Origin: Candidatus Woesearchaeota archaeon
GTDB taxonomy: Archaea; Nanobdellota; Nanobdellia; Woesearchaeales; GCA-2687795
Direction: 5' to 3'
Assembly (NCBI GenBank): GCA_030753365.1
Contig: JASMCJ010000050.1
Span: forward strand, 1-37,616
Length of the DNA: 37,616 nucleotides
Part shown: one piece after another, positions 1,370-4,930 of the stretch
Layout: each line of letters begins with the position of its first letter
Position numbering within the stretch: position 1 is the first letter of the stretch
The notes under the pieces: model-generated
Databases searched by the model: none
Told to the model about the DNA's origin: nothing
Seen by the model: only the letters and a program-made list of their open reading frames with translations
Made by a program: the position numbers and the translations under genes

Positions 1370-2002
1370 TTAGCTTGTTATTACAAACAATGCTTCATAA
1401 AACTTGTCAACATTTTTTCCGTATTTGGCTGAGATACCTATTACATCATACTGGGGAAATGCCGCTTCTATCTTCTTAATACTTGCCTTTTTTAAATCTA
1501 TCTTATTTGCAACTATCAGCACAGGTATGTTTCTTGCTTGAAGATTACCAACAATAGTTATATTTACCTGCGAATAAGGATCTTTTGTTCCATCAATAAC
1601 AATAATCACTGTATCCATATCATCCAACCATTTGATAGAGTCAATAACACCTTTAGTCGCTTCTTTAGCTCTTTTCTTCGCTTCACTCTGCTTTAAGCCA
1701 GCTTTGATAAAATCTTCATAATCAATTCTTGTGGCTATCCCTGGAGTATCAACAAGGTTAAATGACAGTTCTCTTCCTTTGTGCTTGATATTGATTTGCT
1801 CTTTTATCTGGATTTCTCTTGTTTCATGAGCAACATTAGACACGCTTCCCATGTCTTCTCCTAACCAATCCTGACATATTTTATTCGCAAGAGTGGTCTT
1901 TCCACTGTTAGGAGCTCCATATAATCCTAATTTAATATGCTTTTTATTCTTAAAAAGATTCTTAAGAATTTTATTGACAAACTGCTTTAAAAAACTTATC
2001 AT
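1370..2002 (-). CDS. oapA: Origin-associated Era-like GTPase OapA
   Basis: G1 GAPNSGKT, HETRE, G3 DTPG, G4 NKID, G5 SAK; EATKGV and DPYSQVN motifs. Start placed at ATG 2002, behind a GGGGA SD-like sequence. Confidence 0.88.
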   Translation of the reverse strand: MISFLKQFVNKILKNLFKNKKHIKLGLYGAPNSGKTTLANKICQDWLGEDMGSVSNVAHETREIQIKEQINIKHKGRELSFNLVDTPGIATRIDYEDFIKAGLKQSEAKKRAKEATKGVIDSIKWLDDMDTVIIVIDGTKDPYSQVNITIVGNLQARNIPVLIVANKIDLKKASIKKIEAAFPQYDVIGISAKYGKNVDKFYEALFVITS

Positions 2003-2080
2003 TCTTTTCCCCAAAAACAGTTTAAAGTATTTTGTTTAAATACTTTTCTATATTCCATAAGTATGTATTCAGGGAGATAT

Positions 2081-2304
2081 ATAGCAAACGCACTAAATAT
2101 TCGTACATCAAATATGCGTTTGCTATCATAGAAATTGTTATACAATTTCTAGGATCCTAAGAAAAACCAAAGGTTTTTCTGGGACACTGAGAAACTTCTT
2201 AGAGTTTCTGGTGTGCTCAGAAATGTTTTGCATTTCTGACAAACCAAAAAATATGCAAGACTGATTTTTCAGTTCACCAGAAATTCCTATAGAATTTCTG
2301 CGTG
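2081..2304. repeat. Array of palindromic hairpin modules (AGAAA...TTTCT, ~30-nt period) preceded by a 12-bp inverted repeat
   Basis: ATAGCAAACGCA/TGCGTTTGCTAT (2081-2092/2115-2126), then hairpins with AGAAA at 2130, 2160, 2190, 2219 and 2279, and a degenerate unit near 2246. Confidence 0.85.
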
Positions 2305-2413
2305 TGTTAGAAGAATTAAAAAATATTATGTTCTTAGTTCTTCCGCTATATTTATATAAAAATTAATAAATAACTGGTATATATCTATTATAAAACATAT
2401 ATAACAAACTAGA

Positions 2414-2959
2414 ATGACAGAATACAAGTATGAACTAAAAATTCCTAAGGAAAGAATTGCTGTATTAATCGGCAAGGAAGGCACTATTAAGAAAAAAATA
2501 GAGACTGCTACTTCCACAAAGATAGATATAGATTCAAAAGAGGGTGATATTTTCATTTCTGGCACTGACAGCATTAAACTTTATACAACACAAGAGATTA
2601 TTAAGGCTATTGGAAGGGGATTCAACCCAGAAGTAGCTCTTCTGCTCCTTAAAAGCGATTATGCTTTCGAACTTGTAAATATTAATGATTACATCAAAAG
2701 TGAAAAAAGCCTTACAAGATTAAAAGGGAGAGCTATAGGCAAAGAAGGCAAAAGCAGGAGGATTATAGAAGATCTTACTGACACCCATATTTCAGTTTAT
2801 GGCAAGACAGTAGGTATTATTGGAGAAGTAGGAAATGTTATGATTTCCAAAAAGGCTGTTGAATCCTTATTGAATGGCTCTAAGCACAGCAATGTTTATA
2901 GCTGGCTGGAGAAGCAAAAGAAGAGTATGAAAGAACTTGTTGAAGAGGATTTTAAGTAA
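2414..2959 (+). CDS. KH-domain small-subunit rRNA processing protein (Dim2/Pno1/KRR1 family)
   Basis: IPKERIAVLIGKEG, KAIGRGF, RLKGRAIGKEGKSR, HSNVY motifs. Confidence 0.92.
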   Translation: MTEYKYELKIPKERIAVLIGKEGTIKKKIETATSTKIDIDSKEGDIFISGTDSIKLYTTQEIIKAIGRGFNPEVALLLLKSDYAFELVNINDYIKSEKSLTRLKGRAIGKEGKSRRIIEDLTDTHISVYGKTVGIIGEVGNVMISKKAVESLLNGSKHSNVYSWLEKQKKSMKELVEEDFK

Positions 2960-2972
2960 GATAAAAACATCC

Positions 2973-3059
2973 AAAACGAAAATCCTTATAGATTTTCGGT
3001 CATTACAACTTGGACAGAAAGCCGTAGAATATTAAGCCCAAGTTGTAATAAAACGAAAA
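2973..3059. repeat. Two-hairpin intergenic cassette flanked by an AAAACGAAAA direct repeat
   Basis: CGAAAATC/GATTTTCG (2977-2998); ATTACAACTTGG/CCAAGTTGTAAT (3002-3013/3038-3049); direct repeat at 2973-2982 and 3050-3059. Confidence 0.7.
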
Positions 3060-3151
3060 CCTTAAAAAGGGTTTTCTACAATTCAATTTTTCTAAATAAG
3101 AAGAATAAACCTACGCATCAAAACTAACTACAAGATTAGAGACGATATAAC

Positions 3152-4930
3152 ATGGCAGAAGAACAAAATAAACTTAATCAACCAGACACCACAGAAGAGC
3201 CTATTGCTGTTGAACTTGCAAAAAAGCAGCGCGAAGTTTCTATCTCGCAGTTCTTTGAAAGGAACAGGCATCTATTAGGGTTTGATAACAAAAGAAAGGC
3301 CTTGATGACTACTATTAAGGAAGCTGTTGATAATAGCTTAGATGCTTGCGAAGAAGCAGATATCCTACCTGAGATATATGTAAATGTTGTTGATATGAAT
3401 AATGACAGGTTTAACATCACTATTGAAGATAACGGTCCAGGTATTGTAAAGAAACAAATACCTCACATTTTTGCAAGATTGCTTTATGGTTCTAAATTTT
3501 TTAAGCTTTCACAATCAAGAGGTCAGCAAGGTATAGGAATCTCAGCTTCTGTTATGTATGCGCAGTTGACTACAGGAAAGCCAGCTAAGATAACTTCTAA
3601 GATTGACAAGAAGCATCCAACGCATTATTATGAGCTTCACATAGACACCCAAAAGAATACTCCTGAGATTGTAAGAGAAGAGATAGTAGAAGAATGGAGT
3701 GACAAAGACCATGGAACTAAGATAGAGCTTGATTTAGAAGGCTCTTATCAAAAAGGCGACCAAAGTATTGACCAATATCTAAAGCAAACCGCTATTGCAA
3801 ATCCTCATATTACATTAATCTATCAACCTCCAAAAGGTGAACAGCTTATATTTGCTAGAGCAACTGACAAAATGCCTAGAAGACCTGTTGAAATTAAGCC
3901 TCATCCTTATGGGGTTGAACTTGGCAGATTATTCCAAATGGCTAAGCTTACAGAAGCAAAAACCTTGCAAAGTTTTCTTATGAAGGAGTTTTCAAGGGTT
4001 GGTTCAGGCACTGCAAAACAGATTTGCGAGAATGCAGCGCTTCTTCCTAAGACAAAGCCAAAAACAATGAGCAGAGAAATGGTTGAAAGCCTTATGAAAG
4101 GCATCAATGAGACTAGAATAATTTCTCCTCCTACTGATTGCATATCTCCTATAGGAAATGATTTGCTTGAAAAAAGCTTAAGGAAAGAAATAAATGCAGA
4201 GTTTTATACTGCTGCCGTAAGACCTCCTAGTGTATATAGAGGAAATCCCTTTATTGTAGAAGTTGCCTGCGCTTATGGCGGAGAACAGCCAGCTGATCAG
4301 TCCATGAAGATATACAGATTCGCAAACCGTGTACCTTTACTCTATCAACCTGGAGGCTGCGGAATAACAAAGAGTGTCATAGCAACTAACTGGCGCTCAT
4401 ATGGCTTGAGCCAAAGTTCTGGCGCTTTGCCTGTAGGACCTATTACTTTAGTTGTTCATTTAGCTTCTGTCTGGGTTCCTTATACCTCTGAGAGCAAGGA
4501 AGCTATTGCGCATTATCCTGAGATTATTAAAGAGATTAAGCTTGCCGTGCAGGAGTGCGGAAGAAAGCTTGCAATGTATATAAGGAAGAAGAGAAGAATT
4601 CAGGATGAGTCAAAGAAACGAGATTATATTCAGATTTATATTCCTCATATTGGAAGCGCTTTAAAAGAGATAATTGGATTGAAAGACAGCCAGGAAGAAA
4701 GAGTCAATAAGCTTTTGAAAAGCGTGCTTGAGAAGAAGAGAGGAGAACTTGAAGAGATTAAGGTTGACAATCCAGAATATGATGCAGAATGGGCAAAGAT
4801 AGGAAAGGAAAAGAAAGAAAGAGAGAAAGGAAAAGAGAAAAAAGAAGAAAAGGAAGGAAAAGACAAAAGTAATAAAGGAAAACAGGAAGGAAAAGAGAGA
4901 GAAAAGAAAGAAGATAAGAAAAAGAAATAA
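3152..4930 (+). CDS. top6B: DNA topoisomerase VI subunit B
   Basis: GHKL motifs KEAVDNSLDA, EDNGPG, SRGQQGIGIS; RFANRVPLLY; VPYTSESKEAIA; K/E-rich C-terminal tail. Confidence 0.97.
   Translation: MAEEQNKLNQPDTTEEPIAVELAKKQREVSISQFFERNRHLLGFDNKRKALMTTIKEAVDNSLDACEEADILPEIYVNVVDMNNDRFNITIEDNGPGIVKKQIPHIFARLLYGSKFFKLSQSRGQQGIGISASVMYAQLTTGKPAKITSKIDKKHPTHYYELHIDTQKNTPEIVREEIVEEWSDKDHGTKIELDLEGSYQKGDQSIDQYLKQTAIANPHITLIYQPPKGEQLIFARATDKMPRRPVEIKPHPYGVELGRLFQMAKLTEAKTLQSFLMKEFSRVGSGTAKQICENAALLPKTKPKTMSREMVESLMKGINETRIISPPTDCISPIGNDLLEKSLRKEINAEFYTAAVRPPSVYRGNPFIVEVACAYGGEQPADQSMKIYRFANRVPLLYQPGGCGITKSVIATNWRSYGLSQSSGALPVGPITLVVHLASVWVPYTSESKEAIAHYPEIIKEIKLAVQECGRKLAMYIRKKRRIQDESKKRDYIQIYIPHIGSALKEIIGLKDSQEERVNKLLKSVLEKKRGELEEIKVDNPEYDAEWAKIGKEKKEREKGKEKKEEKEGKDKSNKGKQEGKEREKKEDKKKK

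What the first reader, a model, noticed from the sequence alone, without database searches (positions are those of the whole stretch)
2129..2304. Periodic array of co-varying AGAAA...TTTCT hairpins: a modular palindromic element or structured RNA
Seen: five clear hairpins plus one degenerate unit at ~30-nt spacing (AGAAA at 2130, 2160, 2190, 2219, ~2246 degenerate, 2279). Each keeps the outer AGAAA/TTTCT pair, while the inner stem differs in every unit yet stays complementary (TTGT/ACAA, AACC/GGTT, CT/AG, TG/CA, TTC/GAA); loops and linkers are unique. This is structure conserved over sequence, unlike CRISPR (identical repeats) or ordinary tandem duplication. Inference: a BIME/REP-like mobile cassette built from hairpin modules, an array RNA processed into units, or phased binding sites (about three helical turns apart) for a dimeric protein.
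Basis: partly seen in the sequence, partly recalled or inferred. Interest (0 to 1): 0.8.

Follow-up and report, generated by a model that had tools for sequence, protein, structure and literature searches.

The report
Dispersed palindromic hairpin-array repeat in Woesearchaeota
The hairpin array is real and is one copy of a repeat family of small palindromic hairpin modules that come and go in the gaps between genes of Woesearchaeota archaea, much like the REP/BIME repeats of bacteria but without their known transposase.

Summary
Window 2129-2304 carries five perfect hairpins (stems 7-10 bp) and one decayed unit at about 30-nt spacing. They fold far better than shuffles (z -8.8 to -9.5), and the inner stems co-vary (0 of 20000 permutations reach the observed pairing).

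It is not unique to this locus and is not tied to oapA or dim2. It is one copy of a dispersed family in Woesearchaeales (DPANN). Arrays with the same order of linkers occur at unrelated loci in the same-genus genome G001, in G002 (several copies) and in G256. A covariance model hits 26 of 41 related genomes.

Across copies the linkers are conserved. The hairpins change symmetrically and stay perfect Watson-Crick palindromes, with no G.U excess.

All 5 orthologous spacers compared between G000 and G001 carry family hairpin elements in one genome only.

There is no Rfam match. There is no consistent Y1/RAYT transposase, GTAG tag or target duplication. The canonical orc1 origin lies on another contig.

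Best reading: a REP/BIME- or MITE-like modular palindromic element that is gained and lost; its mover is unknown. Function as a structured RNA is not excluded, because no RNA data exist. I rate it a new variant of a known kind, of moderate interest.

The parts
2081..2126 (.). Long hairpin at the oapA-side end of the composite: 12-bp perfect, G/C-richer stem with a 22-nt loop.
   Evidence: (I5), folds. A long hairpin next to short family hairpins recurs at 3002-3049 and in other genomes.
2129..2151 (.). Unit A: hairpin TAGAAATTGT/ACAATTTCTA, 10 bp, 3-nt loop.
   Evidence: (I4).
2152..2159 (+). Linker 1 (GGATCCTA). The same linker stands at the same position in the G001, G002 and G256 arrays.
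2160..2180 (.). Unit B: hairpin AGAAAAACC/GGTTTTTCT, 9 bp, 3-nt loop.
   Evidence: (I12).
2181..2189 (+). Linker 2 (GGGACACTG). Its ACAC (2184-2187) can pair with GTGT (2211-2214) of linker 3, which extends unit C.
   Evidence: (pairs 67-71 with 94-98).
2190..2209 (.). Unit C: hairpin AGAAACT/AGTTTCT, 7 bp.
2210..2216 (+). Linker 3 (GGTGTGC), conserved in G001 and G002 (GGTGTGM).
2217..2239 (.). Unit D: hairpin TCAGAAATG/CATTTCTGA, 9 bp. This is the most widespread module type of the family.
   Evidence: (I15).
2239..2245 (+). Linker 4 (ACAAACC), conserved in G001, G002 and G000:C28.
2246..2270 (.). Unit E: decayed unit. A 6-bp A/T stem (2247-2252 with 2264-2269) and an 11-nt loop remain. Intact hairpins stand at this position in G001 and G002.
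2270..2277 (+). Linker 5 (CAGTTCAC). Its CAC (2275-2277) pairs with GTG (2302-2304) across unit F, leaving C2301 bulged.
2278..2300 (.). Unit F: hairpin CAGAAATTC/GAATTTCTG, 9 bp, 5-nt loop.
   Evidence: (I16).
2301..2308 (+). Linker 6 (CGTGTGTT), the conserved end of the array (CGTGTKTT in G002).
2310..2343 (.). Imperfect inverted repeat (13-nt arms, 85% complementary). It may be a further decayed unit.
   Evidence: I8. Not followed further.
2977..3076 (.). Second, smaller composite of the same family in the dim2-top6B spacer: hairpin CGAAAATC/GATTTTCG, a 12-bp long hairpin (3002-3049), and hairpin GAAAACC/GGTTTTC. It is absent from the roughly 50-nt spacer of G001.
1370..2014 (-). Flanking gene oapA (small GTPase, MMR_HSR1), followed by oapB (936-1328) and oapC (528-932). 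This is context, not part of the element.
2414..2959 (+). Flanking gene for a KH-domain Dim2/KRR1-like protein. This is context, not part of the element.

Best explanation
The array is one copy of a lineage-specific family of dispersed, modular palindromic DNA repeats that sit in the intergenic spacers of Woesearchaeales (DPANN) genomes.

A copy is a mosaic of short hairpin modules joined by 5-9-nt G/C-containing linkers. Each module has A/T-rich arms of the type NGAAAxx...xxTTTCN and a loop of 3-5 nt. In the window-type subfamily the linkers come in a fixed order and partly pair with each other to extend every other hairpin.

It behaves like bacterial REP/BIME elements or MITEs. It is non-coding and non-autonomous, it is inserted into and lost from spacers, and it is tolerated inside operons. 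Its hairpins are kept as perfect Watson-Crick palindromes.

Shown here:
- the family exists and is dispersed;
- linkers are conserved while hairpins change symmetrically;
- elements are present or absent at orthologous sites;
- none of the known hallmarks tested applies (Rfam family, RAYT, GTAG tag, origin).

Inferred:
- copies spread through a single-stranded or cruciform hairpin intermediate recognised at the conserved stem base by an enzyme not yet identified;
- arm symmetry is kept by selection on pairing or by intrastrand template switching;
- any host effect is a by-product, for example uncoupling of neighbouring genes or stem-loops in transcripts.
For: 1. Homologous arrays at unrelated loci. 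BLASTN of 2060-2330 finds G001:C34 (82% identity), several G002 contigs and short module hits in G010, G038 and G000 itself. The same linker order (GGATCCT, GGGACACT, GGTGTGM, ACAAACM, NNGTTCAC, CGTGTKTT) is seen in G001, G002:C26 and G002:C175, in part in G002:C6 and C101 and in G000:C28 and C31, and in G256.

2. Dispersal. Model R1 hits 26 of 41 relatives at E<=0.01, with both strands counted: G002 59, G010 25, G038 19, G000 12. In a phylum sample it hits 15 of 151 genomes at E<=1e-6, and all 15 are of the same order. CAGAAA-N5-13-TTTCTG totals 260 against 50 for the reversed control over the 41 genomes (my sum). In 185,579 species, 50 of the 80 listed stretches with the unit-D hairpin come from archaeal MAGs, mostly titled Woesearchaeota, Pacearchaeota or Nanoarchaeia.

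3. Symmetric change. Arms of the same unit pair for 3.29 bp against 0.68 bp for arms of different units, and 0 of 20000 permutations reach this. Paralogues within G002 differ by paired changes while their linkers are identical.

4. DNA-type palindromes. 152 of 180 hairpins are perfect. The single mismatches are 6 G.U, 7 A.C and 15 other.

5. Gain and loss. All 5 orthologous spacers compared between G000 and G001 carry the family hairpin element in one genome only:
- oapA|dim2;
- dim2|top6B, 192 nt against about 50 nt;
- G000:C28, a 232-bp insert against a 7-nt spacer;
- G000:C69, 633 bp with the array and a MazG ORF against a 7-nt spacer;
- G001:C3, an array against a 15-nt spacer in G000.

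6. Location. The elements are intergenic in every gene arrangement. Of 51 sites, 25 have ORFs called on both sides: 15 tandem, 6 divergent, 4 convergent. One array sits inside the rpoH-rpoB operon of G002.
Against: No mover was found. Y1_Tnp is present in 10 of 41 genomes and missing from the array-rich G001, G010, G017 and G021. The IS200-like copies in G000 end in unrelated CCGCAG-type hairpins.

No target-site duplication or terminal inverted repeat could be read at the three clean empty-site comparisons. Insertion therefore cannot be told from deletion, and the C69 difference also carries a gene.

Fixed linker order, linker-linker pairing and a conserved 1-nt bulge would also suit a structured RNA.

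Window-type arrays showed a consistent orientation towards the neighbouring gene: in 8 of 8 arrays with a called neighbour, plus 2 and 1. That could point to a transcript-level role. G256 does not repeat it, however: tandem contexts split 3 against 4.

No RNA data exist for this stretch.

Copies are not independent, my ORF calls are crude, and R1 was built from 4 sequences.
Confidence: 0.6

Rival explanations
1. The arrays are a family of structured RNA elements, either cis-acting parts of mRNAs or small non-coding RNAs. They would be bound or processed at the conserved stem bases and linkers, for example as protein-binding stem-loop arrays, mRNA end protectors or processing signals.
For: Structure is conserved over sequence.

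Linkers are conserved in a fixed order and partly pair. Bulged extensions of the type CAC..nGTG recur.

Arrays lie inside a presumably co-transcribed RNA polymerase operon.

11 window-type arrays face a gene start with the same end.

Both strands fold strongly.
Against: There is no Rfam family at the gathering score in the window or in 20 related loci other than tRNA, and only chance-level hits at E<=10.

G.U pairs are not favoured: 6 against 7 A.C, with 152 of 180 hairpins perfect.

The orientation bias is not reproduced in G256.

The elements are not kept at orthologous sites: 5 of 5 spacers differ between congeners.

In the window the array lies upstream of both promoters, between divergent genes.
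Confidence: 0.2
2. The array is a set of phased binding sites in double-stranded DNA for an oligomeric regulator, a nucleoid protein or a topoisomerase. It would act as an upstream control or topological element for oapA and/or dim2.
For: The array lies in a divergent promoter region.

Units are dyad-symmetric at about 30 bp spacing.

In the abstract listed, bacterial BIMEs are said to bind several proteins.
Against: Spacing across the family ranges from 25 to 39 nt.

The distance between the conserved half-sites varies, with N7 to N13 between the pentamers.

Protein contacts do not explain the symmetry of the inner arms.

The same arrays flank unrelated genes, including an epimerase, rpoH, cysS-like and CBS-domain genes.

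Among the 30 oapA loci scanned, only G000's own has the AGAAA..TTTCT motif within 700 nt upstream of oapA. That count includes three loci with shortened flanks.
Confidence: 0.1
3. The array is a replication origin, or part of one, because it lies next to the 'origin-associated' oapABC genes.
For: Pfam names the neighbouring genes OapB and OapC, origin-associated proteins. An AT-rich stretch follows the array at 2345-2410.
Against: The only Cdc6/Orc1 gene found lies on contig C69. It has its own upstream spacer of about 500 bp with a long AT run flanked by inverted boxes. That these boxes resemble origin recognition boxes is my recollection, not a test.

The array is multi-copy and absent from the same locus in G001.
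Confidence: 0.02

Closest known systems
Bacterial REP elements and their mosaic clusters (BIMEs), including REPIN doublets
   Same: Both consist of short palindromic units in many copies that are almost always extragenic. In both, units cluster at regular spacing with mosaic linkers and, in places, alternate in orientation. Both are lineage-specific, keep their hairpins through symmetric changes, and are tolerated between genes of one operon. The BIME features are taken from the abstract and passages of PMC2817692.
   Different: This family is archaeal (DPANN). Its arms are A/T-rich rather than G+C-rich, and there is no GTAG/CGTC tag. There is no consistent Y1/RAYT gene. A passage of PMC6006769 says only the IS200-type subclass of these proteins was seen in Archaea. 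Here each position in a fixed linker frame can hold different hairpins.
MITEs (miniature inverted-repeat transposable elements)
   Same: Both are small, non-coding, multi-copy and intergenic, and both are present or absent between close relatives. A census paper reports a Woesearchaeal genome among the archaea with the highest MITE density, 105 per Mb (passage of PMC11602168).
   Different: No terminal inverted repeats or target-site duplications could be read at the empty sites. The body is an array of independent small palindromes rather than one element bounded by transposase-binding ends.
Integron attC sites
   Same: Both are recognised by structure rather than sequence, with conserved stem-base letters and variable inner stems. 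One polymorphic insert carries a small ORF (MazG) next to an array.
   Different: There is no integron platform, and no integrase was sought. Units are about 20 nt and tandem, with no cassettes between them. The resemblance is recalled, not tested.
CRISPR arrays
   Same: Both show regular spacing of palindromic units.
   Different: The units here differ from one another, and the 'spacers' are 5-9-nt conserved linkers. No cas context was seen in the flanks examined.

Membership tests
REP/BIME | Short palindromic units, extragenic, many copies per genome. | tested here: met
   Copy numbers are modest: about 10-60 model matches per genome with both strands counted. The abstract of PMC2817692 speaks of more than 100 copies per genome.
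REP/BIME | Clusters of regularly spaced units in alternating orientation with mosaic linkers. | tested here: inconclusive
   Regular clusters and mosaic linkers are clear. Alternation can be judged only through the CAC..nGTG bulge motif. Both orientations of that motif occur within single arrays in 2 loci.
REP/BIME | Conserved GTAG (or CGTC) tag at one end of the palindrome. | tested here: not met
   Units start with (TC)AGAAA, NGAAA or AAAAA, and none of the units listed carries GTAG. The tag definition is taken from the title and abstract of PMC3733652 and the table in PMC2817692.
REP/BIME | A cognate RAYT (TnpA-REP, Y1 HUH) gene in the genome. | tested here: not met
   PF01797 is found in 10 of 41 relatives. 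It was not found in G001, G010, G017, G021 or G037. The copies in G000 carry unrelated end hairpins. The subclass of those proteins was not determined.
MITE | Terminal inverted repeats and target-site duplication. | tested here: not met
   Neither was recognisable at the three empty-site junctions. The boundaries are blurred by divergence (75-80% identity in the flanks).
MITE | Presence or absence at orthologous sites between close relatives. | tested here: met
   5 of 5 spacers compared differ between G000 and G001.
Any Rfam RNA family | A match at the curated gathering score. | tested here: not met
   0 matches in the window. Only tRNAs in 20 related loci. Nothing near the gathering score at E<=10.
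CRISPR | Near-identical direct repeats separated by unique spacers of about 30 nt. | tested here: not met
   Units differ from one another. The only direct-repeat family is linker-centred at 74-79% identity.
Archaeal oriC | Origin recognition boxes around an AT-rich unwinding element, next to orc1/cdc6. | tested here: not met
   orc1 lies on contig C69 with its own AT-rich spacer. The array is multi-copy.
Integron attC | Sites at cassette boundaries downstream of an intI integrase and attI. | not tested
   No integrase search was run. Only one insert with an ORF next to an array was seen.

The most novel reading that the evidence does not exclude
These arrays are a new class of archaeal mobile or self-propagating element. 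A conserved, partly base-paired linker scaffold holds slots that are filled with interchangeable perfect-palindrome hairpin cassettes. The elements would be spread by machinery that is not a RAYT or IS200 transposase, either an unknown hairpin-recognising enzyme or a replication template-switch process. They may also have been recruited as stem-loop arrays in transcripts.
Probability: 0.3. Interest if true: 0.7.

Novelty: new variant of a known kind. Interest (0 to 1): 0.55.

Why it matters
DPANN archaea have tiny, streamlined genomes. A repeat family that enlarges their spacers, splits tightly coupled gene pairs (7-nt spacers become 230-630 bp) and turns over within a genus is therefore a visible force in their genome evolution.

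The family offers an archaeal counterpart to the REP/BIME and REPIN systems in which the usual mover is not evident. Finding what moves these elements could reveal a new enzyme that recognises hairpins.

There are practical consequences too. In the reads laid, the contigs of two runs end at or near the array's edges (low depth, not tested further). The arrays also create spurious ORFs and could be mistaken for RNA genes or regulatory sites.

The pattern of conserved linkers with swappable hairpins is an unusually clean natural case of structure-preserving evolution. It could be used to separate selection on pairing from palindrome self-correction.

Tried and rejected
**RNA evidence.** No RNA holder is listed for window 1400-3400. 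The one metatranscriptome laid (X21) gave nothing. This says nothing about expression.

**Strain variation.** Contigs of two other marine runs cover the array with 0 differences: X12 over 1934-2359 and X14 over 2117-2301. No variants were seen. In X20 the stretch 2010-2357 has no cover.

**Earlier findings.** The tool was not open.

**Origin reading.** Rejected.

**RAYT/IS200 link.** Rejected. Y1_Tnp is present in 4 of 10 genomes with 8 or more model matches and in 6 of 31 of the rest. These are my counts, and the difference is not convincing.

**Terminator reading.** Only 4 of the 25 sites with ORFs called on both sides lie between convergent genes. G000 has only about 25 such hairpins.

**Viral carriage.** There are 4 single hairpin matches in IMG/VR, none in an array. 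I treat them as chance.

**Flanking repeat as target duplication.** TATTGAATTCAC flanks arrays in G002. It is a general G002 motif, 47 matches against 9 for the control, so I rejected it as a target duplication.

**Orientation test by the CAC..nGTG motif.** Inconclusive: 5 against 3 in tandem contexts.

**Exact junction pattern.** GTGTGMTCAGAAATG is found in only 8 of 401 order genomes, and 2 of the 13 sites lie in coding sequence.

**Metagenome scan.** It gave 8 stretches, one of them the G001 array.

**Control for model R1.** The control used 24 bacterial loci chosen because they hold the unit-D hairpin. One of them reached 28 bits, and the rest stayed at or below 22 bits.

**Literature.** My searches gave no description of this family. 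Supplementary files, such as the MITE lists of PMC11602168, could not be seen and may contain such elements.

Full report
**What is there**

The window is contig C50 of a 0.9-Mb, 78-contig genome. Titles of related records place the lineage in Candidatus Woesearchaeota / Nanoarchaeia.

The finding lies in the 400-nt spacer between two divergent genes. One is oapA, a small GTPase gene at 1370-2014 on the minus strand, followed by oapB and oapC. The other is a KH-domain Dim2/KRR1-like gene at 2414-2959 on the plus strand. Topoisomerase VI subunit B comes next.

AGAAA-N7-13-TTTCT occurs at 2130, 2160, 2190, 2219 and 2279. The whole window has 7 matches, where 100 shuffles give 2.6 +/- 1.6 and none reaches 7.

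Each of the five is a perfect hairpin of 7-10 bp. The unit at 2246-2270 is decayed but keeps a 6-bp stem. A 12-bp long hairpin (2081-2126) abuts the array.

The stretch 2076-2312 folds with z = -8.8 and -9.2 as RNA on the two strands and -9.5 as DNA. 0 of 200 shuffles fold as well.

The bare motif is not enriched in the genome: 84 matches against 74 for the reversed control. What is special is the extra pairing and the clustering. Only 10 of the other 79 matches have stems of 7 bp or more, and no other cluster of 3 or more exists.

**It is a member of a dispersed family**

BLASTN of the array finds an 82%-identical stretch on a different contig of the same-genus genome G001. It also finds several copies in G002 and many short matches to single modules in G010, G038 and G000 itself.

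Read side by side, the copies in G000, G001 and G002 show the same succession of linkers: GGATCCT, GGGACACT, GGTGTGM, ACAAACM, NNGTTCAC, CGTGTKTT. Between the linkers the hairpins differ. Shorter versions occur in G002 (C6, C101) and in G000 (C28, C31). G256 holds many more.

I built a covariance model of three units with their linkers (R1).
- It matches 26 of 41 related genomes at E<=0.01, with both strands counted: 59 matches in G002, 25 in G010, 19 in G038, 12 in G000 and 8 in G001.
- In a sample of the phylum it matches 15 of 151 genomes at E<=1e-6, and all 15 belong to the same order.
- As a control I used 24 bacterial loci that contain the unit-D hairpin by chance. One of them reached 28 bits; the archaeal arrays typically score 30-117 bits.

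Two pattern counts agree with this.
- CAGAAA-N5-13-TTTCTG totals 260 against 50 for the reversed control over the 41 genomes (my sum).
- Across 185,579 species, 50 of the 80 listed stretches with the unit-D hairpin are archaeal MAGs and 30 are bacterial. By my estimate about 26 chance matches are expected under uniform base composition.

In other genera the modules keep A/T-rich arms and the linkers keep CAC/GTG cores. Modules are often nested inside longer palindromes.

**How the copies differ**

Linkers stay the same. Hairpins change on both arms at once. Two G002 paralogues have identical linkers but differ in four hairpins by paired substitutions and by a paired one-base deletion.

Over 28 units, arms of the same unit pair for 3.29 bp beyond the RAAA core, against 0.68 bp for arms of different units. 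0 of 20000 permutations reach the observed sum. The TCAGAAATG-type units were left out of that count by my filter.

The pairing is of the DNA kind. Among 180 family hairpins taken from 73 loci, 152 are perfect. The single mismatches are 6 G.U, 7 A.C and 15 other. There is therefore no sign of wobble tolerance on one strand.

Parts of the linkers pair across every other hairpin: ACAC with GTGT around unit C, and CAC with GTG (one base bulged) around unit F.

**Gain and loss**

Five orthologous spacers could be compared between G000 and G001, whose OapA proteins are 90% identical. In all five the family hairpin element is present in one genome only.
1. oapA|dim2: G001 keeps the divergent pair and the oapA promoter region, but has a different 986-bp spacer without an array.
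2. dim2|top6B: 192 nt with a small composite in G000, against about 50 nt without hairpins in G001.
3. G000:C28: 232 bp with a composite array, where G001 has the two genes 7 nt apart.
4. G000:C69: 633 bp with an array and a MazG-domain ORF, against a 7-nt spacer.
5. G001:C3: a three-hairpin array, where G000 has a 15-nt spacer.

I could read no target duplication or terminal inverted repeat at these junctions.

In G002 arrays fill many spacers, including one between RNA polymerase subunit genes. No transposase gene lies between neighbouring arrays in the four loci I inspected.

**What it is not**

- No Rfam family matches, and the window has no tRNA.
- It is not a CRISPR array, because the units differ and the spacers are 5-9 nt.
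- It is not the replication origin. The only Cdc6/Orc1 gene lies on contig C69 and has its own AT-rich upstream spacer.
- It is not a RAYT-REP system. PF01797 occurs in 10 of 41 relatives and is missing from several array-rich genomes. G000's own IS200-like copies end in unrelated hairpins. A survey of these proteins saw only the IS200-type subclass in Archaea (passage of PMC6006769).
- It is not a general terminator. Contexts are 15 tandem, 6 divergent and 4 convergent among the 25 sites with ORFs called on both sides. 51 sites were examined; 8 fell inside called ORFs and 18 lacked a called ORF on one side.
- Phased protein sites fit poorly. Unit spacing runs from 25 to 39 nt, the neighbouring genes are unrelated, and oapA upstream regions in the other relatives scanned lack the motif.

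**Open point: DNA or RNA**

Eleven window-type arrays turn the same end towards the start of a neighbouring gene on the opposite strand: 8 of 8, 2 and 1. This hints at a link with transcription or replication.

In G256, however, model-oriented arrays in tandem contexts split 3 against 4. The bulge-motif test was inconclusive as well.

No RNA run holds the stretch. I therefore put the structured-RNA reading at about 0.2 and the dispersed DNA-repeat reading at about 0.6.

**Comparison and novelty**

The family works most like bacterial REP/BIME elements: regularly spaced palindromes with mosaic linkers, extragenic and lineage-specific (abstract and passages of PMC2817692). It also resembles MITEs.

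It fails the defining tests of REP membership, namely the GTAG tag and the RAYT gene, and it has A/T-rich rather than G+C-rich stems. It also shows no TIR or TSD of a MITE.

A census paper notes that a Woesearchaeal genome has one of the highest MITE densities among archaea (passage of PMC11602168). Its element lists are in supplements that I could not see.

My four literature searches found no description of this family. I therefore rate it a new variant of a known kind, of moderate interest.

Noticed in passing
L001:2659-3175 (G000:C69, upstream of orc1/cdc6): A spacer of about 500 bp upstream of the only Cdc6/Orc1 gene. It holds a long A/T-only run flanked by two inverted boxes that look like origin recognition boxes (the resemblance is recalled, not tested). 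This is the likely chromosomal origin, on a different contig from the oapABC genes.
   Followed up: partly
window 2977-3076: The dim2-top6B spacer holds a second small composite of the same family: two short hairpins around a 12-bp long hairpin. The dim2 gene is therefore flanked by family elements on both sides. G001 has neither.
   Followed up: yes
G002, e.g. L045:511-522 and L047:189-200, 303-314: The 12-mer TATTGAATTCAC (1 mismatch allowed) occurs 47 times in G002, against 9 for the reversed control. In one case it lies about 14-25 nt upstream of a start codon. It may be a promoter-type motif of that genome.
   Followed up: partly
L053:700-1062 (G000:C69:14099-14461, minus strand): A 120-aa MazG-domain ORF (Pfam E 4e-9) lies next to an array, inside a 633-bp stretch that G001 lacks. 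In G001 the two flanking genes are 7 nt apart.
   Followed up: partly
L199:2200-2620 (G002:C26): By eye, tRNA-like end pieces lie several hundred bases apart with family hairpins between them. ARAGORN called no tRNA in the overlapping locus L044. This may be a tRNA gene with a long insert, or a broken one.
   Followed up: no
window 2014-2047 and the matching stretch of G001 (L003): The oapA-proximal 40 nt, with two inverted TTTAAA boxes, is conserved between G000 and G001 (92% over 39 nt) although the rest of the spacer differs. It is probably the oapA core promoter and may be bidirectional.
   Followed up: partly
G000:C47:4341-4892, C31:48-506, C72:4224-4364: Three IS200/IS605-type Y1 transposase genes or fragments. 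The C31 and C72 copies lie beside hairpins of the CCGCAG..CTGCGG type, and two of the three lie at contig ends.
   Followed up: partly
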